From the NCBI GenBank assembly GCA_937915885.1, contig CALGGP010000229.1:1-50446 (forward strand): a stretch of DNA of 50,446 bases, written 5' to 3'. Both the position numbers and the translations under genes were made by a program. Positions within the stretch are counted from its first letter, which is position 1. Each line of letters opens with the position of its first letter. Of the stretch, positions 4,986 to 47,138 are shown piece after piece. The notes beneath the pieces were generated by a model. The model worked only from the letters and a program-made list of their open reading frames with translations, searched no databases and was not told the DNA's origin. This DNA comes from an uncultured Selenomonadales bacterium (lineage in GTDB: Bacteria > Bacillota > Negativicutes > Selenomonadales > Selenomonadaceae).

Positions 4986-6542
4986 TTACGCCGCCTCTTT
5001 ATGTTCTGCCGACGTGGCGTCGTTGAGCAGTTTGATGCGTCCGAGCCCGATGTTGGGCATGCCGACCTTGTTAAGATATTCCGCAACAATATCTTCGACG
5101 AGATCATATTGCCCGAGGAGTTTCAGATCGGCGAGCATGTCAAAGCCGTCGCCGCCGGTGAACGCAAAATCCGTCGTCGCGATCGTGTAGGTCGCCGTGT
5201 TTTCGAGCCGATTGTTGCCGACAAAAATTTCGCCGACGCGTTCTCCGCGCGGAGCGGTCGGATCGAACTCGAACGTCATGCCGCTGACATTCATAAAGCC
5301 GCCGAACTCCGTCGGATATGCAAAAACGCTGTGCTCGAGCATGGCGCGGATTGCCTCTCCTCTGATCTCTCGCACTTGGACGTAATTGCTGAACGGGAAA
5401 ATCGAAAGCAATTCGCCGCGCGTGATCGAGCCGCTCGGCAGATCGGTGCGGATATCGCCGCCGTTGATGATCGCGATATCGGCGTGGGTCTTCCAACGGA
5501 AGGAATCGGCGACGAGATTTCCGAACTCCGACTCGCCGCAACGCACGACCGACCGATCGCCTGTCAAACGACGCTCGGCAGTGGCAACGACCTCACCAAA
5601 AATTTTTTGATTGCGCGCCTCGATATCGGCAAGTTTCGTTTCGACGACGGGATCGGGCTTGCCGGCGATCGCTTTTACTTCACTGTCGTCGAGCAACCGC
5701 GCGGATTTGGAAGTAATTCTGTGATGATCGATGTCGACCGCGACGCAACCGAGATAATGTCCGTGGCAGCCGGTTTGCGCAATGAGCGTTTTGCCGACGG
5801 TGAGACCCTCGGGCAATTCGGTGTGACTGTGACCGTCAATAATTATGTCGATGCCGTCAGTCTCGCGCGCGATGCGCTCACTCGTAAATTCGGAGCTGTC
5901 GTCGAGCCCCATGTGCATGACGCAAACAATCACATCGACCTTCGGGCGGAGTTTCGTGATCATCATCTTCGCTTGGACGATCGGATCGAGAAAATCAATC
6001 GTCGCAACGTTGGTCAACGCCGTCTTATACGCGCACTCGGGCGTCGTCAAACCAATCACGCCGACCTTGGTGCCGTCGCTCATCTTGAAAATTTTATAGG
6101 GTTTGAAGACGAGCTTTTGACTGTTACGACGGACGACGTTGGCGGCGAGCTCAACGCCTTTAAAATTTTTGGCGAGCGTCTCGAGGCGTTTGGAGCCGTA
6201 ATTGAAATCGTGATTGCCGGGGACGGAGACCTCGACGCCCGCCGCGTTCATCAGCTCGACCATATTCATGCCGGTGCTGATATTGATGCGGGGCGTGCCG
6301 TGAAAGGTGTCGCCGGCGTCGAACCAAAAGGTGTCTGGATTTTGAGCTTTGGTATTATTGACGGCGGCGGCGAACCACGCCAGCCCGATGGTCGTGCCGT
6401 TGTCGTCGGCGGGAGCGACGCGCGCGTGCTGATCGTTGGTGTGGAAGATGATCAGTTCCGACGCGTCGGCGCTCGGCAACAACACGAGCATCAAACACAA
6501 AATGAGTGCGGCGAAAATTTTTTGCCGTATGAACTTGAACAT
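4986..6542 (-). CDS. Secreted bifunctional metallophosphatase / 5'-nucleotidase (UshA/CpdB-like)
   Basis: A signal peptide MFKFIRQKIFAALILCLMLVLLPSADA is followed by metallophosphoesterase motifs HTNDQH, GDTFHG and GNHDF, and then a C-terminal 5'-nucleotidase domain. The start is chosen at the internal ATG, which has a GAGGTGA RBS. Confidence 0.85.
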   Translation of the reverse strand: MFKFIRQKIFAALILCLMLVLLPSADASELIIFHTNDQHARVAPADDNGTTIGLAWFAAAVNNTKAQNPDTFWFDAGDTFHGTPRINISTGMNMVELMNAAGVEVSVPGNHDFNYGSKRLETLAKNFKGVELAANVVRRNSQKLVFKPYKIFKMSDGTKVGVIGLTTPECAYKTALTNVATIDFLDPIVQAKMMITKLRPKVDVIVCVMHMGLDDSSEFTSERIARETDGIDIIIDGHSHTELPEGLTVGKTLIAQTGCHGHYLGCVAVDIDHHRITSKSARLLDDSEVKAIAGKPDPVVETKLADIEARNQKIFGEVVATAERRLTGDRSVVRCGESEFGNLVADSFRWKTHADIAIINGGDIRTDLPSGSITRGELLSIFPFSNYVQVREIRGEAIRAMLEHSVFAYPTEFGGFMNVSGMTFEFDPTAPRGERVGEIFVGNNRLENTATYTIATTDFAFTGGDGFDMLADLKLLGQYDLVEDIVAEYLNKVGMPNIGLGRIKLLNDATSAEHKEAA

Positions 6543-6589
6543 AAAAATCACCTCGGCGGCTTTATTCGACCGCCGCGCGGCAATTCCTT

Positions 6590-6618
6590 TTGACAGAGTC
6601 AATCGGTGAGTATATAAT
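6590..6618 (+). promoter_or_regulatory. Consensus sigma70/SigA-type promoter TTGACA-N17-TATAAT for the plus-strand operon
   Basis: TTGACA lies at 6590-6595 and TATAAT at 6613-6618, with exactly 17 nt between them. Confidence 0.6.
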
Positions 6619-6648
6619 AATTTTATGTTTGAAGGGAGGAGTGATTGT

Positions 6649-7683
6649 TTGTCATCGAATCAGACGAAGAATAAATTCGACGAGCGCTATGATATCCGTC
6701 TGGCGCGCCTCGACGAGATCGACGAGCTTATGACGTTCATCGACACTTGGTGGCGCAAGGGGCATATCATGGCGCGCGACCGAGCGATGTTCGAGTACGA
6801 GTACGTGGTCGACGGCAGAGTGAACATGATGATTGCCAAAGAAAGAGCTACGAATAAAATCGTCGGCTTCAACGGCTTTTTGATGGCGTCGAAGAACAAA
6901 GACAAGCTCGACTTATGGGGCAGCATGCGGAAAGTCGTCCCGGGCTCGATGGGATTGCTCGGCTTGGAGATCGTCAAGCGCAAGGAGCGACTTTTGAACG
7001 CGCGCTCGTATTTGAGCATGGGCATCAATGAAGATACGACCGTTCCGATCAACAAATACATGCGGCACTATGACGACGTCGGCAAGCTGACGCATTTTTA
7101 TTGTCTGTCCGATCGTTCGGATTATCGGATCGCGAAGGTTGCTCACTATGAGTCTTTCGAGGGAGAACGCGACTATCGAGTGCAGCTCACTCCGATCAAA
7201 AATCTTGACGACCTTCGGCGCGTCTACGATTTTTCCTGCAGCGAGGACGCGATCCCGTATAAGGACGAGTGGTACATCAACCGGCGATTTTTGGAGCATC
7301 CGATTTTCGAGTATCAAGTTTTCGGATTGTCGGAGGACGACGGCAAAGCTCAAGCGCTGTTGGTTTGTCGCGAGCAACCTTACGGCGGCGCGACGGCATT
7401 GCGCATCGTTGATTACATCGGCAAGCCTCACCTGTTCGGAGGGCTGTCGGGCTTTTTGAGCGACGCTCTGAAAAAATATGAGTACGTTGATCTCTACTGC
7501 CGTAACTTCGACGAAGCGTCCGTTCGACGAGCGGGGCTGATCGAGTTGTCGGACGACGACATCAACATAATCCCGAATTATTTTCAACCGTACGTGGCAA
7601 AGAACGTCGATATTTGGTGCGCCACCCCCAAGGGTAAAGCGGTGTTCTTCAAAGCGGACGGCGATCAGGATCGTCCCAACTGA
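6649..7683 (+). CDS. Hypothetical protein, possibly a GNAT / FemAB-like acyltransferase fold
   Basis: The ORF is long and compositionally normal. The proposed start is TTG 6649, 7 nt after GGGAGGAG, because ATG 6625 falls at the predicted transcription start. The N-terminal region (YDIRLARLDEIDELMTFID...) is GNAT-like only by eye. The C-terminus ends FFKADGDQDRPN. Confidence 0.5.
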   Translation: MSSNQTKNKFDERYDIRLARLDEIDELMTFIDTWWRKGHIMARDRAMFEYEYVVDGRVNMMIAKERATNKIVGFNGFLMASKNKDKLDLWGSMRKVVPGSMGLLGLEIVKRKERLLNARSYLSMGINEDTTVPINKYMRHYDDVGKLTHFYCLSDRSDYRIAKVAHYESFEGERDYRVQLTPIKNLDDLRRVYDFSCSEDAIPYKDEWYINRRFLEHPIFEYQVFGLSEDDGKAQALLVCREQPYGGATALRIVDYIGKPHLFGGLSGFLSDALKKYEYVDLYCRNFDEASVRRAGLIELSDDDINIIPNYFQPYVAKNVDIWCATPKGKAVFFKADGDQDRPN

Positions 7684-7711
7684 AATATCGATTTAGGAGA
7701 GTGGTAATGCA

Positions 7712-7963
7712 ATGGACAACCTTAATGACAGCGTCCGCGCGGTGCTGATTCAAATTCGCAAGGAGATCGAGCCGCATCTCGACGAGACCGATCTCGTGAC
7801 GAACGGACTCATCGATTCGCTTGACATCATGAATTTGATCATGAAGCTCGAGGAAACGTTTGACATCGAGATCGATCCCGAAGACGTCGTAGCCGAAAAC
7901 TTTGACTCCGTCGCGGCGATCATTGCGCTCATCAACAAATGTCGAGGTCAATCCGATGTCTGA
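7712..7963 (+). CDS. Acyl/peptidyl carrier protein (DltC/ACP-like)
   Basis: It is an 83-aa acidic protein with the phosphopantetheine-attachment-type motif GLIDSLDIMNLI. An AGGAGAG RBS precedes it. Confidence 0.8.
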   Translation: MDNLNDSVRAVLIQIRKEIEPHLDETDLVTNGLIDSLDIMNLIMKLEETFDIEIDPEDVVAENFDSVAAIIALINKCRGQSDV

Positions 7964-8406
7964 GCGAAACGAACTCGCGCTCCACCACATTGGATTTGCC
8001 GTCCGCTCAATCGAAGAAACGCGTCCCGCTTTTGAAGCGTTGGGCGCCGAATTTTTTCATGCCTCCTCCGATCTCGAGCGCAATTTAAATTTTAGTTTCG
8101 CGCGTCTGAACGGGGGGGGGGGGCTCTGCAGTAGTTGAATTGGTTTCACCGCGAGACCCGGAGTTGCCATGCGCGGTTACTCGAATGGTTGAGAAGCAGG
8201 CGTGCGCGCCCTACCACATCTGTTTGAAGACAAACGACTTGGACGCGGAGCTGAAACGATTAAAGCCGTTGGGCTTCAAACGGATCAGCACTCCGCGCAC
8301 GACACATATCCATGGTCGCGCGACGCGAGCCTGTTTCCTGTTCAGCGCGACGATGGGTTTGGTCGAACTGATTATGGAGTGTGCAACGGATGAGCAATCC
8401 CAATGA
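7956..8406 (+). pseudogene. VOC (glyoxalase / methylmalonyl-CoA-epimerase-like) enzyme interrupted by a frameshift in a G12 tract
   Basis: The N-terminal part (LHHIGFAVRSIEE...) lies in the frame of ORF 7902..8138. The C-terminal part (ELVSP....PYHICLKTNDLD...GLVELIME) lies in the frame of ORF 8140..8406. G11 or G14 would give one continuous ORF of about 150 aa. Confidence 0.65.
8112..8123 (+). repeat. Homopolymer G12 inside the VOC gene
   Basis: Counted directly, and consistent with the translation NGGGGLCSS* of the upstream ORF. Confidence 0.9.
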
Positions 8407-9832
8407 AACGATTTTATCTCGACTGAAGTTTTTCGCCGACGAGACGCCCGACAAAATTTGTTTGATCGACGGCGCGCGCGGCGAGCAATGTACCTATAAA
8501 GATTTTTGGGCTCGAGTGCTGAGATTTGCGGCGATGGTCGAGCCAAATAAATTTTATCTGTTGAAGACGCGACAGACGATCGATCATTTGATCGCCTTCT
8601 ACGGAGTGCAGGCGGCGGGCTCGACAGCGATCCCCGTCGAGGCAACGACGTCGGACGAGCGGCTCAACGAGCTTGCCGATCGATTCCGCGCGGAGCTTCT
8701 GTCGAGCGATCCAATTACGAGCGCGGAGCCGATTGATTTTGTCGAGCCCGATCCCGAGCGAATTGCCTGCGTGATCTTGACGACGGGAACGACAGGCGTC
8801 AGCAAGGGCGTGATGTCGAGCTTTCGCTGTCGATTTTGCGGCGCGGACAATGTTCGATACTCTTATTCGATCACGCCCGATGACGTTGCATTGATCCCGC
8901 AGATGTTGTCGCACAGCGGCGGGCTCCGTCGTGTTGAGGCGATGCTCGTCAGCGGCGCAACAGCTGTGATCATGGGCGCCGTGATGCTGTTCGGAAATAT
9001 TTTCGGCGCCGTCAAAAAATATCATTGCAATATCCTGCAGTTCGTCCCGACGCAAGTCGCTCAAATCCTCCGTCGGGCACGAAAACTTTTGGTCGAAGTC
9101 GCTCCGCAATTGCGCATCGTCAGCGTCGGCAGCGCCGTCATTCCCGAGCACGACAAAGAACAACTTCGAGAACTTCTGCCGACCGTTCGCTTATTCAACG
9201 ACTTCGGCTCGACGGAGGCGTGCGGCTCGGCGTATTTCGAGTGGAGCGCTTTTGAGCCCAAGCCCGATTGCGTCGGCGTTGAGAGTATTCACTCGCGCAT
9301 AGTTTTTCTCGACGACGACGGCGCGGTACTCGAGCACACCGATCGCGATCACCCGGGCATTCTTGTGACCGAGGGCGGGACTTTGATGACGGGATATTTC
9401 GACGCGCCGGATTTGACGGCGGAGGTTCTTCGCGACGGTCGAGTGTTGTCGGCGGATTTGGGCTGGCGCGGTGCGGACGGCATGATTTACATTCTCGGAC
9501 GGCGCGACGACATGATTGTCAGCGGTGCCAACAAAATTTCGCCCGTCGAGCTCGAAAATATCATATCGCGGATTGCGGGCGTCAAAGAATGCGCCTGCGT
9601 CGGAGTGTCGGACAAAATTATGGGGCAAGTGCCGGTGATTTTTGTGGTGTGGGATCGAGAGCCGCTGCCGCTCGAGTGCTTGACGGCGGAGCTTGAGAAA
9701 CGCGTCGACCGATTCAAAATCCCGCGCCCCGAAAATATTCATGTCATTGACGCCCTGCCTCGGACGCCCGGCACGGGTAAAGTTATCAAACGCGAACTTA
9801 CAGAGAGGCTGATCAAAAATGAAAACGTATGA
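8390..9832 (+). CDS. AMP-dependent adenylate-forming enzyme (DltA / acyl-CoA synthetase superfamily)
   Basis: The core motifs are present: ILTTGTTGVSKGV (A3), GSTEACG (A5), GRRDDMIVSGANKISPVELE (A8) and PRTPGTGKVIKREL (A10). The start is taken at ATG 8390; GTG 8381 is also possible. Confidence 0.9.
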   Translation: MSNPNETILSRLKFFADETPDKICLIDGARGEQCTYKDFWARVLRFAAMVEPNKFYLLKTRQTIDHLIAFYGVQAAGSTAIPVEATTSDERLNELADRFRAELLSSDPITSAEPIDFVEPDPERIACVILTTGTTGVSKGVMSSFRCRFCGADNVRYSYSITPDDVALIPQMLSHSGGLRRVEAMLVSGATAVIMGAVMLFGNIFGAVKKYHCNILQFVPTQVAQILRRARKLLVEVAPQLRIVSVGSAVIPEHDKEQLRELLPTVRLFNDFGSTEACGSAYFEWSAFEPKPDCVGVESIHSRIVFLDDDGAVLEHTDRDHPGILVTEGGTLMTGYFDAPDLTAEVLRDGRVLSADLGWRGADGMIYILGRRDDMIVSGANKISPVELENIISRIAGVKECACVGVSDKIMGQVPVIFVVWDREPLPLECLTAELEKRVDRFKIPRPENIHVIDALPRTPGTGKVIKRELTERLIKNENV

Positions 9833-10683
9833 AATTTTTTGGACGGGAGGCTTTGATTCAACGCTTCGGGTCGTTCAATTGTCGCGTTACCCTATCAAAA
9901 TTCAACCGGTGTTTTGCAAAGGAGTTGCCGCCGACATCCGCAAAAGCGAGTTCTACGAGCTGCGAGCCATCAAACAGATATCAGCTTTGTTGCGCACCAA
10001 ACCCGGCGTCAAGGCTGAACTTTTGCCGCTGAAGATTGTTTATCGTTCGTCGGCCCCCCCCCCATTTGGATCAAGACTTCGTGTATGAACCTCTTCCGAA
10101 GGATCATGGGGTCGCCGTCGCCTTCCGCAAAATTTATATCTCAATGATGGCTCCGAGGCGCAACCAACTTGCGACCGGACGCGGGGTGCTCAACGCCGTG
10201 AATGTTGATCTTTATATCGATGCGCAGTACCAATGGCTTGCCGCTTATGCCAACAGTCGTGAGGCGCCCGTCGAGATCGGAATCACGGCGAGGTACGTAA
10301 ATAAATTTCTGGCGGCAATCGGCGGCGACGATGCAATCGATGAGATTGACAACGGTCTTTTCAAGCAATACGTTTTGAGTAAGGAAAGATGTAAATCTGC
10401 CGACGGCTATAAAATTTTCGGGGGCTTTGCGTTTTCGTTTTACGATGCGCCGCTCAAGCCCGAGTTGGTGAAAGAATATAGGCGTCTCGATTGCGAGGAC
10501 ATAATGAATTTGACGTGGTTCTGTTACGATCCCATTGACGGTGAACCATGCGGGCAGTGTTGGACTTGCGTGCATACTTATCGTGACGGCATCACAAATC
10601 GTTTCAGCCCCGCCGCACTCGAACGCTATCATAAACGCGAAAAGGAGTTGAGCTCAACTCCGAACAATGAGGAGGATACTTAG
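9819..10683 (+). pseudogene. QueC-like PP-loop ATPase, paralogue 1, interrupted by a frameshift in a C10 tract
   Basis: It has an N-terminal PP-loop WTGGFDST and a C-terminal Cys cluster CGQCWTCVHTYRDG (the QueC-type CGxCxxCxxRxxG). The ORFs 9819..10088 and 10036..10683 join if the C-tract is 9 or 12 long. Confidence 0.7.
10054..10063 (+). repeat. Homopolymer C10 inside QueC-like paralogue 1
   Basis: Counted directly. Both flanking ORF translations (SSAPPPF / RRPPPHL) run through it. Confidence 0.9.
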
Positions 10684-10686
10684 ACG

Positions 10687-11538
10687 ATGAAAATATATAA
10701 CGTCCTTTGGTCTGGCGGTGTCGACAGCACGTTTGTCGTGACACAGCTGTCGCAATACCCCGTGGTGATCCGACCGTTTTACATCAAGGGACAAACCTTT
10801 CGACTGTCGGAACCGCAGGAGTTGTCGGCGATCAAAGCGATCCGTGAGTTGCTGATTGCGGACGAGCGGACGAAGGCGGAGATCATGGAGCCGGAGATAA
10901 TCGAGGCGAGCGATCCGCGCATAAAGGATCGCGAAGTCGTCAAGGCTTGGCGTCGAATTTACATGCGATTGTTGGAGCGATATAAAGCCGAGCACAATGG
11001 AAAATTGCCGGCGGCGGGCAGCCAACAAATTTATGCGGATGGCGCCTATATTTCCCCGCAGTATGCATCGTTCGCCTCCTTAACCAAAAACTTGAACTCG
11101 GATTTTGAGATCGGAATTATTTATGCCGATCATGTTTCGTCGGCTTTTAATTCTTCGGATTCGATTTTGATCGAGTACGATGAACTGACTGAAAGGAAAG
11201 TTCTTCGGCTACGCGATGATATCTCGGACAAAGACTCTTACACTTTGTTTAAAGATATGCGGCTCCCGATTGCGGGACAAGGCATGGATAAACGCGATGT
11301 TTGGAAGTGGTACTCCGATCACGGCTATCTGATGGTGCGCTCGAAAACAAATTTCTGTCAAGCTCCCATTTCCACGGGGGGGGGGGCCGTCGAGCCTTGC
11401 GGAGTCTGCACACCGTGTATCTGCGTGATTCGAGAAGGTGTGCTTGAGCCCTTCACCGAAGCCGGTCTCGCTCGCTATCGCGACTACGAAGAAAATCATG
11501 AGAGGGAGCCTGAGCGTTTCAGACTTAAAGGTTTTTGA
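10687..11538 (+). CDS. QueC-like PP-loop ATPase, paralogue 2 (intact)
   Basis: It has the PP-loop WSGGVDST, the C-terminal CGVCTPCICVIREG motif and a GAGGAGGA RBS. It contains an in-frame G11 tract that encodes TGGGA immediately before the Cys cluster. Confidence 0.75.
   Translation: MKIYNVLWSGGVDSTFVVTQLSQYPVVIRPFYIKGQTFRLSEPQELSAIKAIRELLIADERTKAEIMEPEIIEASDPRIKDREVVKAWRRIYMRLLERYKAEHNGKLPAAGSQQIYADGAYISPQYASFASLTKNLNSDFEIGIIYADHVSSAFNSSDSILIEYDELTERKVLRLRDDISDKDSYTLFKDMRLPIAGQGMDKRDVWKWYSDHGYLMVRSKTNFCQAPISTGGGAVEPCGVCTPCICVIREGVLEPFTEAGLARYRDYEENHEREPERFRLKGF
11376..11386 (+). repeat. Homopolymer G11 inside QueC-like paralogue 2 (in frame)
   Basis: Counted directly. The translation is ISTGGGAVEPCG. 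Confidence 0.9.
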
Positions 11539-11556
11539 ACGAAGGAATTGCTGAGC

Positions 11557-12267
11557 ATGAATTTTGATCAATCGGACATCACAATCTCACACAATCGTCG
11601 GGTGAAGTATTTTCCGCGCGGCGAATTGTTGTGCCTCGAGCGGAGCGAACTTACGATGAATAAGGTTGCCGACTCCGGCACTTACCTTAAATATTTTCCC
11701 GAGGCTGTCTACATCGAAGACGCCGACGGAAGTCTCTACGGCATATTGACTAACGGCGACGTGTTGAAATCGCTGAACTTCGGCGAGCCGTTGATCAATC
11801 GGAAATTTTTTCGATTGGACGACGCATCGAAAATCCGCGCGGATTTTTTTCAAGAGTTCTTTGACCTGCATCGATCGGTCAGATGCATCCCGTTCGTCGA
11901 AAATGATCGGCTCGTCGGTGAGTGGCGGCTCCTCATCGGCGAGGAAGATTTTGAATCGAAAATGTGTTGGGAGCCGATCCAATCAATTGCCGATAAACGT
12001 TTAAGCGAGTTGGAGGGCAACGCCGTCGTTTGCGATCAAAAATCTTTTCGGGCGCGTCTGATCGAAAGTATTCGCGACGGACAGGATGACGGCAATAAAA
12101 TTATTCCGTTGTACGATGTCTATATGGAGTGCCTCATTCGTTTTTTGACGGGCAAATTTCGAGAGCATCACATTCCCTTCTTTTATGTCGAGGCGCCGTC
12201 GACAAAAAAAAATTCTGCACTCCGCCGATTGGATACAAGATGTTCTCCGTCGAAATCTCCGCACTGA
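11557..12267 (+). CDS. CBS-domain-like protein, probably the N-terminal part of a larger frameshifted gene
   Basis: The segments AVYIEDADGSLYGILTNGDVLKSL and CIPFVENDRLVGEWRLL resemble a CBS pair. The ORF leaves frame at the A9 tract and ends 55 nt later. With A8 it would read straight into ORF 12185..13609. Confidence 0.5.
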   Translation: MNFDQSDITISHNRRVKYFPRGELLCLERSELTMNKVADSGTYLKYFPEAVYIEDADGSLYGILTNGDVLKSLNFGEPLINRKFFRLDDASKIRADFFQEFFDLHRSVRCIPFVENDRLVGEWRLLIGEEDFESKMCWEPIQSIADKRLSELEGNAVVCDQKSFRARLIESIRDGQDDGNKIIPLYDVYMECLIRFLTGKFREHHIPFFYVEAPSTKKNSALRRLDTRCSPSKSPH

Positions 12268-13609
12268 GGATATTGCCCGCGACGAGTCTCAATTGCTCGA
12301 TCTCTACGATGACGACGCCGATCGGGCGTTTATGCGCGAGACGGAGTATGTCAATTTTGTTTATGTGGATCGGGGATATTATTTTAATCTGGCGGATTAC
12401 GACGGCAAGGGCTTGCATGTGGTCGACGGCAGGCGATTGACGACGGACGTTCCGAAAAATCCCGCGCGGAGGATTCATATCTTCGGGCAATGCACGGCGC
12501 GCGGCTCGCATGTGATCGACAGTCACACCATCGAAAGCTGCCTCCAACGAAAACTCAATGCCGCCTGCCCCGGCACATGGGAGGTTGTCAATTACGGTGT
12601 GGCGGGCAGAACCGGCGGCGATATGAACGATCTGAATTACATTCTGTGCTCGGATTTCCGCGCGGGCGACGTAGTCATTTGTCTTGCCGCCTATCGCGAT
12701 TCGACCGTGGAGCTTTTGAAAACATTCGGCGCGATTTGTCTTGAAACTTCGAGTGTGCTTGCCGCGCCGACGAACGTTGCGAAGTTGGGGCGTTGGTTTT
12801 TGGATATTCCGCTCCACATCAATCATCGGGCGTGCGAATTGATTGCGGATCATTTGTTTGCGTCGCTCGACGATCGGCTCGAGCTGTCGTCTCATTCGAT
12901 CGATGATGCAGCCCGCGAGCGGGTTTCATTTTATGACGAGTTCATGCCCGCCGTCGTCAACAGTCGAGCGTTTAAAAATTATATCGAGCGACTCAAAAAT
13001 ATTTTGGGTGATCAGATTATCAATAGGGGGGGGGGTGGATCATGCGGCGCGATCGTAATGAATTGCAATCCATTCACGCTCGGGCATCGATATTTGATCG
13101 AAGAGGCGGCGAAAACCGTCGAGACTTTGATCGTGTTCGTCGTGAGAGAGGATCGCTCGAAATTCCATTTCGCGGATCGGATCAGGTTGGTGCGCGAGGG
13201 CGTCAAAGATTTGACGAACGTCATCGTGGAATCGAGCGGGCAATTCATGATCTCGACGGAAACCTTCCCCGAGTATTTTTTCAAGAGTCAACTGCAGGAA
13301 GTAGCGATCGATTCATCTTATGATGTGAGGCTGTTCGGAAAATACATTGCACCGGCGCTTGGGATCACGATTCGATTCGTCGGCGAGGAACCGTTTGATG
13401 CTGTCACTTCGTCATACAATCGGACAATGCATGAAATTTTGCCGGAGTGCGGAGTCAAGGTCGTCGAAATTCCGCGCAAGAAGGTGAACGGCGAAGTGAT
13501 CAGCGCATCGAAGGTACGGGCGCTGTTGAAGGAAGGAAAAATGGAGGAATTACGGGCTTTCGTTCCGTCGCCGACATATGAGTATCTGCGTCAAAATTGG
13601 CGAAACTAG
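12185..13609 (+). CDS. Two-domain protein: N-terminal SGNH/GDSL-like region (weak) plus C-terminal CitC-type ([citrate lyase] ligase-like) nucleotidyltransferase domain
   Basis: The C-terminus GAIVMNCNPFTLGHRYLIEEAA...VFVV.ED.S.F.F..R..LV matches the cytidylyltransferase-like domain of citrate lyase ligase. The middle region (RIHIFGQCTARGSH...INHRACELIADHL) is SGNH-like only by eye. No RBS precedes ATG 12185. An in-frame G10 tract encodes the RGGGG linker between the domains. Confidence 0.7.
   Translation: MSRRRRQKKILHSADWIQDVLRRNLRTEDIARDESQLLDLYDDDADRAFMRETEYVNFVYVDRGYYFNLADYDGKGLHVVDGRRLTTDVPKNPARRIHIFGQCTARGSHVIDSHTIESCLQRKLNAACPGTWEVVNYGVAGRTGGDMNDLNYILCSDFRAGDVVICLAAYRDSTVELLKTFGAICLETSSVLAAPTNVAKLGRWFLDIPLHINHRACELIADHLFASLDDRLELSSHSIDDAARERVSFYDEFMPAVVNSRAFKNYIERLKNILGDQIINRGGGGSCGAIVMNCNPFTLGHRYLIEEAAKTVETLIVFVVREDRSKFHFADRIRLVREGVKDLTNVIVESSGQFMISTETFPEYFFKSQLQEVAIDSSYDVRLFGKYIAPALGITIRFVGEEPFDAVTSSYNRTMHEILPECGVKVVEIPRKKVNGEVISASKVRALLKEGKMEELRAFVPSPTYEYLRQNWRN
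12204..12212 (+). repeat. Homopolymer A9 at the junction of ORFs 11548..12267 and 12185..13609
   Basis: Counted directly. The two frames read STKKNSAL and RQKKILHS through it. Confidence 0.9.
13026..13035 (+). repeat. Homopolymer G10 in the inter-domain linker of the CitC-like protein (in frame)
   Basis: Counted directly. The translation is INRGGGGSCGAIV. Confidence 0.9.
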
Positions 13610-14426
13610 TCGGTGTCGAAACCAATCTTAGTGACGGCGTTGGTCGACAAGACTTTGTCGGTGAGGGGGGCGGATTGAGCGATCATTGCAGGAGAAATTT
13701 CATCGGAAGGCAATTCCCCTCCGATCAGCAACGGGCGTATGTCAACGGTGCCGGGCTCGGGCGAAGTGACGGCGACATCGCGAACTAACGATAGGCGCCA
13801 TAAGAACCAGCGACACTGAGCGACTCGGGGGTTTCATAAATGCGCTCGCGAAGGGCATCATCACTTTCGATGTCGGCGCCTCCGTCGGACGTGGTGATGT
13901 TGACTGCCGATTGCAGGAACGGTTGAGGATCGACTATCTGATCGATCTCTCCGACATCGTACCAATTCCCCGATGGTCCCCGCGCCGTGCACGTCGCCCG
14001 AGCCGGCATCGACAGCGTATTCTTCGGTATCGTCAAATCCTCGTCGAGCGCGAAATATACTCCGTCGCCCGCCGTAAATCTCACTCCGCGCGGAATTACC
14101 GTCGCCTTGCTCCTCAACGCCGACAGCGTCAATTCCATCGTCACCGTCGCCGCCGTCGCCTCCAGCCGCGTCACTCCCACCAGCGCTCCCAGATGATCAA
14201 GGTAATCGCCCGTCGAGTACGCCAGCAAATTCATCTTCGCGCATTGATCGATCAATAAGCGCTGCTGTTGGATCACTGCCTCCACCCCGCGCAAAAATAA
14301 TCGCAACGGATCGGCGCGCGCCAGCTTCCGCCCGAGCAGTTCTTCTACCGTTGATGTCACCTGCAGGTCGAGTTCGTCGATGTCGGCGTCCGCGAATGTC
14401 AACGATGGTAATTGTGTCAGTTTCAT
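13606..14426 (-). pseudogene. Baseplate J-like protein (P2 gpJ / XkdT family), frameshifted and C-terminally truncated
   Basis: The N-terminal 213 aa end ...ESLSVAGSYGAYR*. A second frame continues RDVAVTSPEPGTVDIRPLLIGGELPSDEISPAMIAQSAPLTDKVLSTNAVTKIGFDTD*, which is typical baseplate-J C-terminal sequence. About 10 aa are missing at the joint, and about 60 aa are missing at the end. Confidence 0.75.
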
Positions 14427-15252: not shown

Positions 15253-15573
15253 TCAGCCTCCCACTATCACGTCCTCCGAGCCTTCTACTATCTCGCCCTT
15301 CTCACAACATTTTATGCATCTGGTTTTCACCCCCACATACGACAACTCACGCCCGTTCACCGTCACCGTCGAGCTCCCTCCGCGCACATAAAACATTCCT
15401 CGGTGCGGGCAATTGCACAGCCCTATATCGCCCCGGCTGATTGCTCCTCGTCCATTGATAACCACATTTGCACTTCCCGATCGACAGACGCCTTCCCGTT
15501 CGTGTGAACAGCATTTATGTCCGTCGTCGCATCGCCCCCGCTCATGATCTCCAACTCTGATTGCTCCAGGCAT
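15253..15573 (-). CDS. PAAR-like spike-tip protein
   Basis: Three PAAR-type repeats are present (GAIRVGD, GAISRGD and ...VNGRELSYVG), the protein is Cys/His-rich, and an AAGGAGG RBS lies 7 nt upstream of ATG 15573. Confidence 0.65.
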   Translation of the reverse strand: MPGAIRVGDHERGRCDDGHKCCSHEREGVCRSGSANVVINGRGAISRGDIGLCNCPHRGMFYVRGGSSTVTVNGRELSYVGVKTRCIKCCEKGEIVEGSEDVIVGG

Positions 15574-16310
15574 GATCGTGCCTCCTTTATTCGTCGTTCG
15601 CATATCGCCACGAACGGCGCGTGATTTTCAAAGCCCACGAAGTGTCGGTTGGTGTTGACGCACGCGACTGCCGTCGTGCCACTGCCCATGCACGCGTCCA
15701 ACACCAATTCCCCCTCGTTCGTGTACGTCTTTATCAGATACTCACACAGCCCCGTCGGCTTCTGTGTCGAATGAACCGAATAACTTCCCGTCACATTCAC
15801 CTGCAAAAAATAATCTATGATATCGATAGGATTGCGCCGTCCGTCCGATCGATCCGTCGTCGTCCGTTTTTTTGTCCCGTAATTCTGTGACGGTCGAAGT
15901 TCACTGTCTCTGTTGGCGAAGTACGGGCGTGAGTACCACCATTGCGGATTGTATGTCGGCAGCTTCCTGTAAAAGACGAGGATATTTTCATGAGCGCGGA
16001 GCGGCATCTTGTTCGCATTCAAAAACCCCACCGGATTCGACTTGTGCCATATCCATTCATAGCGGAACATCTTCCGATTGGCATTGATCAGATCGACCGC
16101 AAACGGCAATTGGCTGAAAATGACGATCGCCGCATTGTGTTTTGCGACCCTAAGGAATTGTTCCCACATCGGCTCGAGCGGCAACCGTCGGTCCCAGAAA
16201 TTTGCAGTCGACCCGTACGGCGGATCGCAGAGTACCATATCCACCGAGCCGTCGGGTATCCGATCCATTCCCGAGATGCAGTCCTCACACCAAATTTTGT
16301 CTATGTCCAT
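15423..16310 (-). CDS. DNA methyltransferase, beta-class, DPPY motif (probably N6-adenine), orphan
   Basis: The catalytic motif VLCDPPYG lies N-terminal, with STQKP and the AdoMet motif LDACMGSGTT C-terminal. The last 50 or so codons overlap the PAAR gene and look like non-conserved read-through. Confidence 0.8.
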   Translation of the reverse strand: MDIDKIWCEDCISGMDRIPDGSVDMVLCDPPYGSTANFWDRRLPLEPMWEQFLRVAKHNAAIVIFSQLPFAVDLINANRKMFRYEWIWHKSNPVGFLNANKMPLRAHENILVFYRKLPTYNPQWWYSRPYFANRDSELRPSQNYGTKKRTTTDRSDGRRNPIDIIDYFLQVNVTGSYSVHSTQKPTGLCEYLIKTYTNEGELVLDACMGSGTTAVACVNTNRHFVGFENHAPFVAICERRIKEARSCLEQSELEIMSGGDATTDINAVHTNGKASVDREVQMWLSMDEEQSAGAI

Positions 16311-16340
16311 TCAACCATGTCCTTTCAACGTGTAAAACGC

Positions 16341-16369
16341 TTGACATTCATACATAGTGCTGTTATAAT
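16341..16369 (+). promoter_or_regulatory. Consensus promoter TTGACA-N17-TATAAT with TG extension, driving hicAB
   Basis: TTGACA lies at 16341-16346 and TATAAT at 16364-16369, preceded by tgt. A GAAAGGAGG RBS and the hicA ATG follow. Confidence 0.65.
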
Positions 16370-16394
16370 GACACTTGAAAGGAGGCCGCAACCA

Positions 16395-16580
16395 ATGAAG
16401 ACTTCGGAGCTCAAAAAGATTCTCGAAGAGCACGGTTGCAGGAAGATCGGCGAAGGCGGCAACCATGAAAAATGGTTCAGCCCCATCACCGGCAAGCACT
16501 TTCAAGTGTGGCGGCACTCCTCAAAGGAAATGCCGCGCGGCACCCTGAACAAAATCCTAAAAGATGCAGGTTTGAAATGA
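16395..16580 (+). CDS. hicA: HicA-family mRNA interferase toxin
   Basis: The 61-aa protein MKTSELKKILEEHGCRKIGEGGNHEKWF...RHSSKEMPRGTLNKILKDAGL shows the typical HicA signature. The 5' part of ORF 15942..16580 is only a shadow of the methyltransferase gene. Confidence 0.85.
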   Translation: MKTSELKKILEEHGCRKIGEGGNHEKWFSPITGKHFQVWRHSSKEMPRGTLNKILKDAGLK

Positions 16581-16642
16581 AAGGCAGGGGCGGAGCGCCC
16601 GCCCCCAAGCCTCGTTTATAAAGCACTCGAAAGGGGATCATC

Positions 16643-19161: not shown

Positions 19162-19352
19162 GATTGCCACGGCGCCTTCAGCTCCTTCTGCTGTCGAACT
19201 GTTTCTGCCTCCTTTAATTCCACGCCCGCTTCAAATTCCTGCCTCTCGATCTTGTCCCGGTTCGCATTCATCAATGCCTCCGCATGCGAAGTCGAGCCGT
19301 ATTCCCGCCATGCTATCTCTTCAAACGTGTCGCCTTGCATCGTCCTAAGCAT
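19158..19352 (-). CDS. Tail protein X (P2 gpX-like, LysM-like fold)
   Basis: TMQGDTFEEIAWREYGS...ALMNANRD resembles gpX (QGDTLDAI..YG). The start is uncertain (ATG 19352, 19340 or 19373). Confidence 0.55.
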   Translation of the reverse strand: MLRTMQGDTFEEIAWREYGSTSHAEALMNANRDKIERQEFEAGVELKEAETVRQQKELKAPWQS

Positions 19353-24129: not shown

Positions 24130-24159
24130 TTTTACTGCCCCCAAAAGGAGTGTTTTCTT

Positions 24160-47077: not shown

Positions 47078-47107
47078 GTAATTCACTCCTTCGATTTTGT
47101 TGATCAC

Positions 47108-47138
47108 ATTATACATTGTTTGAGTCGATCCGTGTCAA
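47108..47138 (-). promoter_or_regulatory. Candidate promoter TTGACA-N19-TATAAT upstream of the aldehyde dehydrogenase
   Basis: On the minus strand TTGACA lies at 47138-47133 and TATAAT at 47113-47108. The spacer is 2 nt longer than optimal. Confidence 0.4.

What the first reader, a model, noticed from the sequence alone, without database searches (positions are those of the whole stretch)
6590..13609. Uncharacterised carrier-protein-dependent operon combining an adenylating enzyme, two QueC-like ATPases and a CitC-like nucleotidyltransferase
One consensus promoter (TTGACA-N17-TATAAT) drives tightly coupled genes:
- a GNAT-like protein
- an 83-aa carrier protein with the DSLD motif
- a VOC/epimerase-like enzyme
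- a DltA-type adenylate-forming enzyme
- two paralogous PP-loop ATPases with the QueC CGxCxxCxxRxxG zinc motif
- a CBS / SGNH-like / citrate-lyase-ligase-like protein

I know no described pathway with this combination. The parts point to three activities. One is activation of an acid or amino acid onto a carrier protein (DltA/DltC logic). The second is ATP-dependent amidation or nitrile-type chemistry on a carboxylate (QueC logic). The third is an acyl-adenylate or thiol-acylating step (CitC logic).

The neighbouring divergent operon (GT2, secreted nucleotidase, permease) and the phase-variable tracts point to decoration of a surface glycan or glycoprotein. A small-molecule product is not excluded.
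Basis: inference. Interest (0 to 1): 0.75.

Follow-up and report, generated by a model that had tools for sequence, protein, structure and literature searches.

The report
Phase-variable carrier-protein sugar-acylation operon
This seven-gene operon most likely builds an unusual acyl group on a small carrier protein and attaches it to a sialic-acid-like surface sugar, and five of its genes carry slippery single-base runs that can switch them on or off one by one; the enzymes themselves have never been studied.

Summary
The operon is real. A perfect TTGACA-N17-TATAAT promoter (6590-6618) precedes seven tightly coupled + strand genes (6649-13609): a tandem-GNAT acyltransferase, an ACP, a VOC/epimerase-like protein, an ANL adenylating ligase, two paralogous QueC-family PP-loop proteins, and a CBS-like / SGNH-like / CitC-like fusion.

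In this sequence, homopolymer runs split three genes: G12 (VOC), C10 (QueC-like 1) and A9 (fusion). Two more genes carry in-frame G11 and G10 runs. Five of the window's six long runs lie within 5 kb.

Relatives of the tandem GNAT, ACP, ligase and QueC-like genes occur together in Lachnospiraceae, Selenomonadaceae, Gastranaerophilales, Cohnella and Lysinibacillus. There they sit inside legionaminic/pseudaminic-acid clusters (NeuB, NeuC, NeuA, PtmE-like, Maf), in one locus between flagellin genes, and usually beside a NodB-type deacetylase.

Best reading: a phase-variable accessory cassette that re-acylates or tailors a nonulosonic acid (or another amino sugar) of a surface glycan. The ACP/ligase core of such islands has been described, for example in Aeromonas, but not characterised. 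The QueC-like pair, the tandem GNAT and the CitC-like fusion are new in this role.

The window holds no nonulosonic-acid genes, so the acceptor is inferred. New variant of a known kind; moderate interest.

The parts
6590..6618 (+). Sigma-70-type promoter, TTGACA-N17-TATAAT
   Evidence: 12 of 12 consensus matches, the best site in 6400-13900. The sequence was read directly.
6649..7683 (+). g1: tandem-GNAT acyltransferase of an unnamed family (344 aa; TTG start after GGGAGGAG, alternative ATG at 6625). Proposed transferase that moves the finished acyl group to the sugar amine.
   Evidence: No Pfam or NCBIfam hit. The family has more than 463 clusters, all 'hypothetical'. The AF2 model has pLDDT 92 and pTM 0.89. 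Foldseek against PDB gives N-myristoyltransferases, Eis and 2hv2 at E 1e-9 to 1e-8, TM 0.45-0.53. Homologues lie next to Polysacc_deac_1 in NulO clusters.
7712..7963 (+). g2: acyl carrier protein (83 aa, DSLD phosphopantetheine site)
   Evidence: PF00550 at E 2.9e-7, above its cut-off. ACP and DltC equivalog models all score below their cut-offs. 50-63% identical ACPs sit at the same position in L001-L011.
7956..8406 (+). g3: VOC / methylmalonyl-CoA-epimerase-like protein, split by a G12 run (OFF as sequenced; G11 would be in frame)
   Evidence: The halves hit Glyoxalase_4 positions 1-46 and 59-104. The repaired 149-aa protein scores E 8e-16. Best PDB hits are 3hdp and 2qh0, then methylmalonyl-CoA epimerases. 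Orthologues are present in L005, L007, L010 and L011.
8112..8123 (+). G12 homopolymer run in g3
   Evidence: G9 and G10 runs lie at the same codon (~52) in the Gastranaerophilales (L010) and Selenomonadaceae (L011) orthologues.
8381..9832 (+). g4: ANL-superfamily adenylate-forming ligase (483 aa; GTG 8381 or ATG 8390). Proposed loader of the ACP.
   Evidence: AMP-binding at E 9e-41 and AMP-binding_C at 2.6e-13. Best NCBIfam and PDB hits are fatty-acyl, MenE, 4-coumarate and malonyl-CoA ligases. Orthologues 66-71% identical always lie next to the ACP.
9819..10683 (+). g5: QueC-family PP-loop protein 1, split by a C10 run (OFF as sequenced; C9 would be in frame). Its start overlaps the g4 stop by 14 nt.
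   Evidence: The repaired 287-aa protein has WTGGFDST and C-x13-C-x2-C-x2-C motifs. Pfam QueC scores E 0.0027, below threshold. It is 79% identical to genes in L007 and L010.
10054..10063 (+). C10 homopolymer run in g5
10687..11538 (+). g6: QueC-family PP-loop protein 2 (283 aa, intact, with an in-frame G11 run)
   Evidence: The family has 59 close clusters and 710 representatives at E<=1e-3. 43 of 53 sampled relatives hit PF06508 QueC. Invariant residues are G11, S14, C224, C238, C241 and C244. It is 30% identical to g5 (E 4e-31).
11376..11386 (+). G11 homopolymer run in g6 (in frame, encodes GGG where relatives have xDG)
11557..13609 (+). g7: three-part fusion, split by an A9 run (A8 would fuse the two ORFs into about 683 aa). 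N-terminal CBS-like region, a middle domain with a conserved Cys (SGNH-like?), and a C-terminal CitC/TmcAL-type HIGH nucleotidyltransferase.
   Evidence: Citrate_ly_lig at E 4e-70; TIGR00124 scores 219.8, below its cut-off of 262. The repaired protein aligns over residues 2-684 with P0181 and L027 at 42%. The AF2 model has pLDDT 83, and its C-terminal domain matches PPAT. The middle domain gets weak GDSL/SGNH hits at E 0.07-1, nothing from Pfam, and only block V against TesA.
12204..12212 (+). A9 homopolymer run separating the CBS-like ORF from the SGNH-like/CitC-like ORF
13026..13035 (+). G10 homopolymer run in g7 (in frame, encodes GGGG just before the HIGH-type nucleotide-binding motif)

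Best explanation
The operon is an accessory cassette for tailoring a surface glycan, built around a carrier protein. Its most likely target is a 5,7-diamino nonulosonic acid (legionaminic or pseudaminic acid type) used to glycosylate flagellin or another surface structure. Each tailoring step is under its own phase-variable switch.

Proposed steps:
(1) The ANL ligase g4 adenylates a small carboxylic acid and loads it on the phosphopantetheine thiol of the ACP g2. This is inferred from the family's chemistry and from the invariant pairing of ligase and ACP.
(2) The VOC protein g3 epimerises the alpha-carbon of the thioester, as methylmalonyl-CoA epimerase does (inferred).
(3) The two QueC-family proteins g5 and g6 use ATP to activate a carboxylate or an amide and replace oxygen with nitrogen, giving an amide, amidine or nitrile. 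The substrate is either a distal carboxylate of the tethered acyl group or an N-acetyl or carboxyl group of the sugar itself. This is inferred from the established two-step QueC mechanism.
(4) The tandem GNAT g1 transfers the finished acyl group from the ACP to a free sugar amine. In relatives, a NodB-type deacetylase encoded right next to g1 would expose that amine. This is inferred from the fold and from synteny.
(5) g7 forms a second acyl-adenylate, most likely acetate as in CitC and TmcAL. It then passes the acyl group on, either through the conserved Cys of its SGNH-like domain to the sugar (for example as O-acylation) or to the ACP thiol. This is the most speculative step.

Shown directly:
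- gene content, folds and motifs;
- conserved co-occurrence with NulO and flagellin genes in other genomes;
- five intragenic homopolymer runs, three of which are out of frame here.
If each run switches independently, they allow up to 32 ON/OFF combinations and so a variable glycan.
For: Synteny:
- L001-L005 carry NeuB, NeuC, NeuA, DegT, a PtmE-like gene (and Maf in L005), then Polysacc_deac_1, g1, SDR, ACP, (VOC), ligase, QueC-like, LuxE and LuxC.
- L007 has ACP-VOC-ligase-QueC1-QueC2 in the window's order (g1 was not detected there), flanked by GT2, ATP-grasp, LuxE and LuxC.
- L027 has flagellin | g7-like | g1-like | ACP-sized gene | ligase | deacetylase | flagellin.
- In Cohnella xylanilytica and Lysinibacillus, g1 sits in Leg-type clusters with a deacetylase, a ligase and an 81-82-aa ACP-sized gene, plus Maf in Lysinibacillus.
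- Distant QueC-like relatives also lie in polysaccharide loci, beside Wzx, UDP-glucose dehydrogenase and GT2.

Literature: an ACP/FabG/AMP-ligase/LuxE/LuxC module lies beside pse genes in Aeromonas flagellin glycosylation islands (PMC7874193). An ACP/ligase/deacetylase set is specific to Y. ruckeri O1, which also carries Leg genes (PMC5552943).

Phase variation:
- Five of the window's six long runs lie in 8112-13035, far above the composition-based expectation.
- All three frameshifts lie exactly in runs, and each is repaired by removing one base.
- Orthologous cassettes in a 34%-GC Gastranaerophilales MAG (six G9-G11 runs in 6.7 kb) and in a Selenomonadaceae MAG also carry poly-G runs. One is at the same VOC codon.
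Against: - The window holds no NeuB, NeuC, NeuA, deacetylase, LuxE/LuxC, Maf or flagellin gene. The acceptor is therefore inferred only from other genomes, and the source organism is unknown.
- No substrate is known for any step.
- The QueC-like and SGNH-like assignments are at superfamily level or weaker.
- The SDR and GFO/IDH/MocA genes next to the cassette in relatives may belong to sugar-precursor synthesis (PtmA/PtmF-like, from my own knowledge) rather than to acyl tailoring.
- Run-length variation was not observed directly. Most orthologous loci have no runs.
- The operon abuts a truncated prophage, and three genes are out of frame, which also fits decay.
Confidence: 0.6

Rival explanations
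1. Decaying remnant. The operon is a non-functional leftover of a glycan-modification island that lost its partner genes (sugar pathway, deacetylase, LuxE/LuxC). It is accumulating frameshifts next to a degraded prophage.
For: Three of seven genes are out of frame. No NulO or deacetylase gene lies within 50 kb. The adjacent Baseplate_J gene is truncated (profile positions 2-139 of 255) and no tail-fibre genes follow, so the region has been rearranged.
Against: - Every disruption lies inside a homopolymer run of 9 or more bases, and a single-base change restores a full-length protein aligned end to end with homologues.
- There are no stop codons or other indels.
- The promoter is a perfect consensus.
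- Two further runs are in frame.
- Similar runs occur in intact orthologues of unrelated taxa.
Confidence: 0.15
2. The frameshifts are homopolymer sequencing or assembly errors. All seven genes are intact in the organism, and switching is not a real feature, or at least was not observed here.
For: Homopolymers of 9-12 bases are error-prone on several sequencing platforms. All three frameshifts are corrected by the same -1 change. No independent assembly of the same locus could be retrieved.
Against: - Two other runs of 10-11 bases in the same operon are in frame.
- No other long ORF in the window looks interrupted.
- Whatever their true lengths, G/C runs of 10-12 bases are established hotspots for slipped-strand mutation (general knowledge of contingency loci). 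Their fivefold clustering in one operon is itself non-random.
Confidence: 0.2
3. A small-molecule pathway. The carrier protein, ligase, tailoring enzymes and GNAT make a free N-acyl metabolite or a lipid head group rather than a glycan substituent.
For: ACP + ANL ligase + GNAT + amidating enzymes is also the logic of natural-product pathways. The window itself has no sugar-pathway gene.
Against: - Every informative homologous locus sits in a nonulosonic-acid, glycosyltransferase or flagellin context.
- The seven operon genes include no condensation, KS or thioesterase domain.
- Multi-run phase variation is typical of surface structures (general knowledge).
Confidence: 0.08
4. A Dlt-like system that esterifies teichoic acid or another polymer with an amino acid (DltA/DltC logic).
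For: A ligase sits next to a small carrier protein. DltC models give weak hits to g2 (E 7e-8, 32 bits). The possibly SGNH-like domain in g7 recalls DltD.
Against: The DltC equivalog cut-offs are not met (32.4 against 68 bits; 20.2 against 52.35). The ligase's best hits are acyl-, aryl- and malonyl-CoA ligases, not DltA. None of the seven operon genes resembles the MBOAT DltB. The homologous loci are NulO and flagellin islands.
Confidence: 0.03
5. An anti-phage defence module built on QueC-family proteins (Qat or type IV CBASS-like protein-nucleobase conjugation), carried next to a prophage.
For: QueC-family proteins are signature parts of QatABCD and type IV CBASS (PMC13279940, PMC13639016 and bioRxiv 10.1101/2025.04.06.647259, listed). 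The operon abuts a prophage. A PADLOC QueC model gives a weak hit to g6 (E 0.001).
Against: PADLOC hits none of the nine operon and neighbouring proteins scanned, apart from that weak g6 hit. None of the operon proteins looks like QatA, QatB, QatD, Cap10 or a CD-NTase. The conserved neighbours elsewhere are glycan genes, not defence genes.
Confidence: 0.03

Closest known systems
ACP / 3-oxoacyl-ACP reductase / AMP-dependent synthetase / LuxE / LuxC module of Aeromonas group II polar-flagellin glycosylation islands (PMC7874193); a similar ACP + ligase + FabG + polysaccharide deacetylase set in Leg-carrying Yersinia ruckeri O1 (PMC5552943)
   Same: A small ACP is paired with an ANL ligase inside or beside nonulosonic-acid genes. 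Close relatives of the window's cassette also carry LuxE and LuxC directly after the QueC-like gene. In both cases the function is unknown and is presumed to be modification of the sugar.
   Different: The window has no LuxE, LuxC, FabG or pse/leg genes. It adds a tandem GNAT, a VOC protein, two QueC-family proteins and a CitC-like fusion, none of which is mentioned for Aeromonas. I did not test sequence homology to the Aeromonas genes.
Campylobacter flagellin glycosylation locus: poly-G contingency genes and the PseA / Cj1324 PP-loop amidotransferases that make acetamidino-Pse/Leg (own knowledge; TIGR03573 WbuX family)
   Same: NulO tailoring genes are switched by intragenic poly-G runs. PP-loop ATPases with a four-Cys motif replace O with N on a sugar substituent.
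   Different: g5 and g6 do not hit any NCBIfam model, TIGR03573 included, at E<=0.01. None of the seven operon genes resembles the WbuY/WbuZ (HisH/HisF-like) partners. The family is QueC-like, not WbuX-like. The taxa are gut anaerobes (the named relatives are Lachnospiraceae, Selenomonadaceae and Gastranaerophilales).
QueC (7-cyano-7-deazaguanine synthase)
   Same: An N-terminal SGGxDS PP-loop and a C-terminal Cys cluster (C...CxxCxxC). 43 of 53 family relatives hit PF06508. The expected chemistry is ATP-dependent conversion of carboxylate to amide (to nitrile).
   Different: The scores are below Pfam's gathering threshold. No PDB QueC was found by profile search. The Cys spacing is C-x13-C rather than QueC's shorter spacing (the QueC value is from my own knowledge). 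None of the seven operon genes matches a QueD, QueE or FolE family. The genomic context is always polysaccharide or NulO.
CitC, [citrate (pro-3S)-lyase] ligase, and TmcAL, tRNA-Met cytidine acetate ligase
   Same: The C-terminal 185 aa match Citrate_ly_lig at E 4e-70. The profile also hits TmcAL and MJ0951. Those enzymes make acetyl-adenylate and acetylate a thiol or an amine without CoA (established knowledge).
   Different: TIGR00124 scores 219.8, below its cut-off of 262, and only model positions 120-330 are matched, so CitC's N-terminal GNAT-like domain is absent. None of the seven operon genes matches a citrate lyase subunit or accessory family (citD/E/F/X/G). Here the domain is fused to a Cys-containing SGNH-like domain and a CBS-like region. 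That architecture is shared by more than 1,300 unstudied protein clusters.
DltA/DltC D-alanylation system
   Same: An adenylating enzyme sits next to a roughly 80-aa carrier protein. The cargo is presumably delivered to a cell-surface polymer.
   Different: The DltC cut-offs are not met. The ligase is closer to acyl- and aryl-CoA ligases. None of the seven operon genes resembles DltB, DltD or DltX.
Tandem-GNAT acyltransferases (N-myristoyltransferase, Eis, FemX-type)
   Same: g1's model superposes on two-GNAT-domain enzymes that transfer acyl or aminoacyl groups to amines.
   Different: Sequence identity is 8-12% and TM only 0.45-0.53. There is no Pfam match. The donor is proposed to be acyl-ACP rather than acyl-CoA or aminoacyl-tRNA.

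Membership tests
QueC (PF06508 / 7-cyano-7-deazaguanine synthase) | Score at or above Pfam's gathering threshold (22 bits) or an NCBIfam equivalog hit | tested here: not met
   g5 scores 17.7 bits and g6 15.4 bits. There is no NCBIfam hit and no PDB QueC hit by profile search.
QueC (PF06508 / 7-cyano-7-deazaguanine synthase) | PP-loop SGGxDS and a C-terminal zinc-binding Cys cluster; superfamily link through intermediates | tested here: met
   WSGGVDST / WTGGFDST motifs are present, and C224, C238, C241 and C244 are invariant. 43 of 53 relatives hit PF06508, best E 7.9e-9.
QueC (PF06508 / 7-cyano-7-deazaguanine synthase) | Co-occurrence with preQ0 pathway genes (FolE, QueD, QueE) | tested here: not met
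   None of the operon's genes matches these families. The neighbours in related loci are glycan genes.
CitC, [citrate (pro-3S)-lyase] ligase (TIGR00124) | Equivalog score of 262.1 bits or more over the full model, including the N-terminal domain | tested here: not met
   The score is 219.8 bits and only model positions 120-330 are matched.
CitC, [citrate (pro-3S)-lyase] ligase (TIGR00124) | Citrate_ly_lig catalytic domain | tested here: met
   PF08218 at E 4.3e-70, positions 2-182 of 182.
CitC, [citrate (pro-3S)-lyase] ligase (TIGR00124) | Linked citrate lyase genes (citD/E/F, citX/G) | tested here: not met
   All seven operon ORFs are assigned to other families. The flanking ORFs that were scanned are a GT2, a 5'-nucleotidase, permeases, a ComM-like ATPase and phage genes.
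Dlt D-alanylation system | DltC equivalog score | tested here: not met
   NF003464 scores 32.4 against a cut-off of 68, and TIGR01688 scores 20.2 against 52.35.
Dlt D-alanylation system | DltA-type ligase plus DltB (MBOAT) and DltD | tested here: not met
   The ligase's best hits are acyl-, aryl- and malonyl-CoA ligases. None of the seven operon genes matches an MBOAT or DltD family.
PseA/WbuX N-acetyl sugar amidotransferase (TIGR03573) | NCBIfam hit; WbuY/WbuZ (HisH/HisF-like) partners | tested here: not met
   NCBIfam returned no family at E<=0.01 for g5 or g6. None of the seven operon genes matches a HisH- or HisF-like family.
Nonulosonic-acid (Leg/Pse) glycosylation island accessory module | Physical linkage of the cassette genes to NeuB/NeuC/NeuA-type genes, Maf or flagellin in related genomes | tested here: met
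   L001-L005, L027, L029 and L030.
Nonulosonic-acid (Leg/Pse) glycosylation island accessory module | The same linkage in this window | tested here: not met
   tblastn with NeuB, NeuC, NeuA, DegT, PtmE-like, Maf, deacetylase, LuxE and LuxC queries found nothing in the 50-kb window. The rest of the genome is not available.
Nonulosonic-acid (Leg/Pse) glycosylation island accessory module | A modified NulO demonstrated on a surface glycoconjugate | not testable with these tools
   This needs glycan mass spectrometry or NMR.
Phase-variable contingency locus | Long homopolymer run inside the reading frame, with ON and OFF frames | tested here: met
   The runs are G12, C10 and A9 (out of frame) and G11 and G10 (in frame). 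Enrichment against expectation is shown.
Phase-variable contingency locus | Run-length polymorphism within a population or between isolates | not testable with these tools
   No reads or second assembly were available. Look-ups of the window's own proteins returned nothing, and the metagenome DNA scan found no match.
SGNH/GDSL hydrolase-acyltransferase fold (middle domain of g7) | Significant profile or fold match with blocks I, II, III and V | tested here: inconclusive
   - The PDB profile search gives GDSL esterases only at E 0.07-1.
- Pfam finds nothing.
- hhalign against TesA aligns only block V (D-x-x-H-x-N), at 12% probability.
- By eye, GQCTARG resembles GDSLSAG and VVNYGVAGRTG resembles VVNASISGDTS.
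- The model's beta-alpha-beta pattern is compatible with the fold.
- The Foldseek list is dominated by the C-terminal domain.
Tandem-GNAT acyltransferase fold (g1) | Structural match to two-domain GNAT enzymes | tested here: met
   The model has pLDDT 92. Foldseek probability is 1.00 at E about 1e-9 to NMT, Eis and 2hv2. TM is only 0.45-0.53.

The most novel reading that the evidence does not exclude
The two QueC-family paralogues and the CitC-like fusion are new classes of glycan-tailoring enzyme.
- The QueC-like pair installs an amide, amidine or even a nitrile on a sialic-acid-like sugar or on its ACP-borne N-acyl chain.
- g7 is a CoA-independent, ATP-driven acyltransferase. It makes an acyl-adenylate in its CitC/TmcAL-type domain and relays it through a Cys-for-Ser SGNH-like domain.
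- With five independent switches, one operon would generate a combinatorial repertoire of surface-sugar structures in gut anaerobes outside the Campylobacter paradigm.
Probability: 0.25. Interest if true: 0.75.

Novelty: new variant of a known kind. Interest (0 to 1): 0.55.

Why it matters
Nonulosonic acids on flagella, S-layers, capsules and LPS shape motility, immune recognition and phage attachment. Their N-acyl diversity (acetimidoyl, hydroxybutyryl, glyceroyl, aminoacyl and others) is chemically well documented but enzymatically almost unexplained.

This operon and its relatives give a compact, testable gene set for that chemistry:
- loader, carrier, tailoring enzymes and transferase;
- three enzyme families with no studied member in this role (the tandem GNAT, the glycan-associated QueC-like family and the SGNH-like/CitC-like fusion);
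- evidence that gut-associated lineages outside Campylobacter use multi-run phase variation to vary a surface sugar.

It also shows that more than 1,300 protein clusters share an architecture that some records label 'citrate lyase ligase' (for example Sporomusa ovata). That label is probably wrong for them.

Tried and rejected
- Exact-protein look-ups of the window's own g4, g6 and g1, to find the source organism or alternative run lengths, returned nothing.
- Cluster-member names were empty.
- A metagenome DNA scan for the flank of the VOC run found no match.
- The phage (megablast) and plasmid (blastn) DNA searches found nothing. The tail-sheath protein search gave only 41-43% matches to P2/Mu-like myoviruses and no host clue.
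- PADLOC gave no defence assignment.
- A PDB profile search with the QueC-like family found no QueC, so the link was made through Pfam scans of distant relatives instead.
- Pfam on the isolated middle domain of g7 found nothing. Foldseek on the g7 model reported only the C-terminal domain, and the model could not be cropped. hhalign against TesA was weak.
- Literature searches for a characterised pathway with these parts found only descriptive mentions. The Shewanella sfmABCDE cluster turned out to have different gene content.
- I considered a 7-deazaguanine DNA or tRNA modification pathway (no QueD, QueE or FolE-like gene in the operon) and a Mu mom-like phage DNA modification (the operon points towards the prophage and its relatives lie in glycan loci). 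I rejected both.

Full report
**1. What is in the sequence**

The + strand between 6590 and 13609 carries one transcription unit.
- A perfect sigma-70 consensus (TTGACA, 17 nt, TATAAT) lies at 6590-6618. It is the best site in the region (sequence).
- It is followed by GGGAGGAG and a TTG start at 6649 (an in-frame ATG at 6625 is the alternative).
- Seven genes follow, with spacings from -26 to +28 nt:
  - g1, 6649-7683
  - g2, 7712-7963
  - g3, 7956-8406
  - g4, 8381-9832
  - g5, 9819-10683
  - g6, 10687-11538
  - g7, 11557-13609
- The left neighbours, transcribed divergently, are a secreted 5'-nucleotidase, a GT2 glycosyltransferase and a FecCD permease.
- The right neighbour, convergent, is the tail end of a P2/Mu-like prophage that runs to about 44 kb. 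Its Baseplate_J gene is cut off (profile positions 2-139 of 255) only about 175 nt from the g7 stop.

**2. Homopolymer runs**

As sequenced, three genes are interrupted:
- g3 by G12 (8112-8123)
- g5 by C10 (10054-10063)
- g7 by A9 (12204-12212)

These are shown. Two more runs are in frame: G11 in g6 (11376-11386) and G10 in g7 (13026-13035).

The whole 50-kb window has only one other run of this size (A9 at 45449). Base composition predicts about 0.3 G/C runs of 10 or more bases in the window, and four are seen, all in this operon.

Removing one base from each out-of-frame run gives proteins of 149, 287 and about 683 aa with no internal stops. They align end to end with homologues:
- g5 is 79% identical over residues 1-277 to L007.
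- g3 is 55% identical over residues 1-139 to L010.
- g7 is 42% identical over residues 2-684 to L027.

So the genes are intact apart from run length.

**3. What each protein is**

- **g1** has no Pfam or NCBIfam match. It belongs to a family of more than 463 clusters, all 'hypothetical'. An AF2 model built on 37 homologues (pLDDT 92, pTM 0.89) matches tandem-GNAT enzymes: N-myristoyltransferases, Eis and 2hv2, at E about 1e-9 and TM 0.45-0.53.
- **g2** is an 83-aa PP-binding protein with DSLD. It falls below all ACP and DltC equivalog cut-offs.
- **g3**, once repaired, is a Glyoxalase_4 VOC protein (E 8e-16). It is closest to the glyoxalase-I-like structures 3hdp and 2qh0, and then to methylmalonyl-CoA epimerases.
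- **g4** is an ANL ligase. Its best hits are fatty-acyl, MenE, 4-coumarate and malonyl-CoA ligases, not DltA.
- **g5 and g6** are paralogues (30% identity, E 4e-31).
  - Both have an N-terminal W(S/T)GGxDST PP-loop and an invariant C-x13-C-x2-C-x2-C cluster.
  - They score below Pfam's QueC threshold, and a PDB profile search finds no QueC.
  - An exhaustive profile search found 710 representatives, and 43 of 53 sampled relatives hit PF06508 (best 8e-9). They are therefore divergent members of the QueC superfamily, not QueC.
- **g7** has three parts.
  - The C-terminal Citrate_ly_lig domain scores E 4e-70. TIGR00124 scores below its cut-off and lacks CitC's N-terminal part. A profile of the g7 family also matches PPAT, TmcAL and MJ0951, and PPAT structures top the Foldseek list.
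  - The N-terminal region has a CBS-like GILTNGDV motif (Pfam E 0.047). Several relatives have proper CBS hits.
  - The middle domain is shared by more than 1,300 clusters of roughly 510-740-aa proteins. Its conserved motifs are hhhGxC(T)xRG, VVNxGxG, GD and D-x3-H-x-N.
  - Support for an SGNH fold in that middle domain is weak. GDSL esterases appear at E 0.07-1, Pfam finds nothing, and hhalign against TesA recovers only block V (the TesA sequence was verified). If the fold is SGNH, the nucleophile position holds Cys rather than Ser.

**4. Where the same genes occur**

*Loci in nonulosonic-acid or flagellin context*
- Lachnospiraceae-type contigs L001-L004 and contig L005 carry DegT, a PtmE-like NTP-transferase, NeuB, NeuC and NeuA (ATP-grasp in L001-L003, Maf in L005). 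These are followed by Polysacc_deac_1, g1 (57-63% identical), SDR, ACP, (VOC), ligase (66-69%), QueC-like 2 (62-65%), LuxE and LuxC.
- L007, a Lachnospiraceae MAG, has ACP-VOC-ligase-QueC1 (79%)-QueC2 (65%) in the window's order (g1 was not detected there). LuxE, LuxC, a split transketolase, SDR and GT2 follow, and ATP-grasp, GT2 and a hexapeptide transferase precede.
- The closest full-length g7 homologue lies in L027, another Lachnospiraceae MAG, in the order flagellin | g7-like | g1-like (35%) | 75-aa gene | AMP-binding | deacetylase | flagellin.
- In the cultured Cohnella xylanilytica (L029) and Lysinibacillus sp. KU-BSD001 (L030), g1 homologues (44%) sit in legionaminic-acid-type clusters. 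These hold PseB/LegB-like, DegT, NeuB, NeuC, CBS-NTP-transferase and NeuA genes, plus Polysacc_deac_1, AMP-binding and an 81-82-aa gene. Lysinibacillus also has a Maf glycosyltransferase.

*Distant QueC-like relatives*
- They lie next to Wzx, a TupA-type ATP-grasp and UDP-glucose dehydrogenase (L012) or next to GT2 (L016).
- Tandem QueC-like pairs recur in unrelated metagenome contigs.

*What varies and what the window lacks*
- The recurrent core is the tandem GNAT, the carrier protein and the ANL ligase, usually with a deacetylase. VOC, one or two QueC-like genes, LuxE/LuxC, a methyltransferase or g7 vary as tailoring genes.
- The window itself has none of the sugar-pathway, deacetylase, LuxE/LuxC, Maf or flagellin genes.

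**5. Runs in relatives**

- A 34%-GC Gastranaerophilales MAG (L010) has six G9-G11 runs within 6.7 kb of the homologous cassette. One of them causes a frameshift in a QueC2 copy.
- A Selenomonadaceae MAG (L011) has G10 in its VOC gene.
- The VOC runs of the window, L010 and L011 occupy the same codon (about 52), where run-free orthologues have no glycine run (L005: MGEC; L007: a single G).
- The runs in the QueC-like genes sit at different positions in different lineages, which argues for independent acquisition.
- Many other orthologous loci, including 52-53%-GC contigs (L031-L034), have no runs. The switches are therefore lineage-specific, not intrinsic to the cassette.

**6. Mechanism**

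The parsimonious model has six parts.
1. A deacetylase exposes an amine of a 5,7-diamino nonulosonic acid.
2. g4 loads a small acid on the ACP.
3. g3 adjusts the stereochemistry at C-alpha.
4. The QueC-like enzymes perform ATP-dependent O-to-N exchange, giving an amide, amidine or nitrile. They act either on a free carboxylate of the tethered acyl group or on the sugar's own N-acetyl or carboxyl group.
5. The tandem GNAT g1 delivers the acyl group to the amine.
6. g7 provides a second, CoA-independent acylation. It would form an acyl-adenylate, as CitC and TmcAL do with acetate, and may relay it through the conserved Cys of its middle domain.

Only the anatomy, the synteny and the runs are shown; every chemical step is inference. 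Two cautions apply:
- The SDR and GFO/IDH/MocA genes in relatives may be PtmA/PtmF-type precursor enzymes (own knowledge).
- The occurrence of QueC-like genes without ACP or ligase in polysaccharide loci favours a sugar substrate rather than an ACP-bound one for that family.

**7. Comparison with what is known**

- An ACP/FabG/AMP-ligase/LuxE/LuxC set beside pse genes is described, without function, in Aeromonas group II flagellin glycosylation islands (PMC7874193).
- An ACP/AMP-ligase/FabG/deacetylase set is specific to Yersinia ruckeri O1, which also carries Leg genes (PMC5552943).
- Poly-G switching of flagellin-glycan genes and PP-loop amidotransferases (PseA, Cj1324) are known from Campylobacter (own knowledge). 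However, g5 and g6 do not match that family, nor any other NCBIfam model.
- The operon is not a Dlt system, not CitC, not QueC and not a Qat/CBASS defence module.
- I found no paper that characterises the tandem GNAT, the glycan-associated QueC-like family or the CitC-like fusion.

**8. Verdict**

It needs the corrections on the three frameshifts, the 'DltA-type' label and the strength of the QueC, CBS and SGNH calls.
- This is a new variant of a recognised but uncharacterised kind of locus.
- Main uncertainties:
  - the acceptor sugar in this organism;
  - the acid that is activated;
  - whether the out-of-frame runs reflect real switching, decay or sequencing error.
- Interest 0.55.

Noticed in passing
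window 13610-14426 (- strand): The prophage's Baseplate_J gene (13785-14426) stops after profile positions 2-139 of 255. Only about 175 nt separate it from the g7 stop, and no tail-fibre genes follow. The prophage tail module is therefore truncated exactly where it meets the operon, which points to a past deletion or recombination at this junction.
   Followed up: partly
window ~13.8-44 kb: A P2/Mu-like myovirus prophage lies mostly on the - strand. It has GpU, gp25-like, GPD, tail sheath, a 1627-aa ORF (19345-24228), terminase gpA, a Toprim/DUF927 primase and AAA_24. GC skew is strongly negative (-0.2 to -0.34) across 14-36 kb. It has no close DNA relative among 50,697 phage records; the tail sheath is 41-43% identical to Yersinia, Escherichia and Vibrio phages.
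   Followed up: partly
window 15423-16310 (-) and 15253-15603 (-): An N6/N4 DNA methylase (PF01555) sits inside the prophage tail-gene block. It overlaps by about 180 nt a 116-aa Cys/Gly-rich ORF, which was not analysed.
   Followed up: no
window ~16390-17086 (+): The C-terminal part of ORF 15942-16580 (…KTSELKKILEEHGCRKIGEGGNHEKWF…) and the next ORF, 16643-17086, look by eye like a HicA/HicB-type toxin-antitoxin pair inside the prophage. This was not tested.
   Followed up: no
L010 (Gastranaerophilales MAG CANQRT010000084.1) 559, 2559, 3263, 4826, 5534, 6709; L011 (Selenomonadaceae MAG) 1069; L007 9891; L051 1323: Poly-G runs of 9-11 bases occur inside orthologous cassette genes of low-GC genomes from other phyla. 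One is at the same VOC codon as in the window. L010 also carries two QueC2 copies, one of them frameshifted at its run.
   Followed up: partly
L046, L051, L054, L058, L067, L068 (metagenome contigs): Distant QueC-like genes (23-31% identical) often occur as adjacent pairs or triplets. The two-paralogue arrangement is therefore a recurring feature of this family, which may mean a hetero-oligomer or sequential steps.
   Followed up: no
Protein family of window 12212-13609 (P0181-P0300); e.g. L028 10001-11539: More than 1,300 clusters of roughly 510-740-aa proteins combine the Cys-containing middle domain with a CitC-like domain. Several are annotated '[citrate (pro-3S)-lyase] ligase' (for example Sporomusa ovata), although they lack CitC's N-terminal domain. 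In L028 the gene stands alone, away from glycan or citrate lyase genes. The annotation is probably wrong, and the family's function is open.
   Followed up: partly
window 9819-9832, and L001 10001-10014: The QueC-like gene start overlaps the ligase stop by the same 14 nt in the window and in Lachnospiraceae-type relatives. This suggests conserved translational coupling of the two enzymes.
   Followed up: no
window 12185-12212: With the A9 length as sequenced, an ATG at 12185 opens a 474-aa ORF holding the whole middle and CitC-like part, close in size to the stand-alone ~510-aa family. No ribosome-binding site is visible upstream. The run might toggle between a fused and a split form rather than simply ON and OFF.
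   Followed up: no
window 45449-45457: The only long homopolymer run outside the operon (A9). It lies in a 46.5%-GC stretch just downstream of the 3' end (45593) of the minus-strand aldehyde dehydrogenase gene (45593-47116).
   Followed up: no
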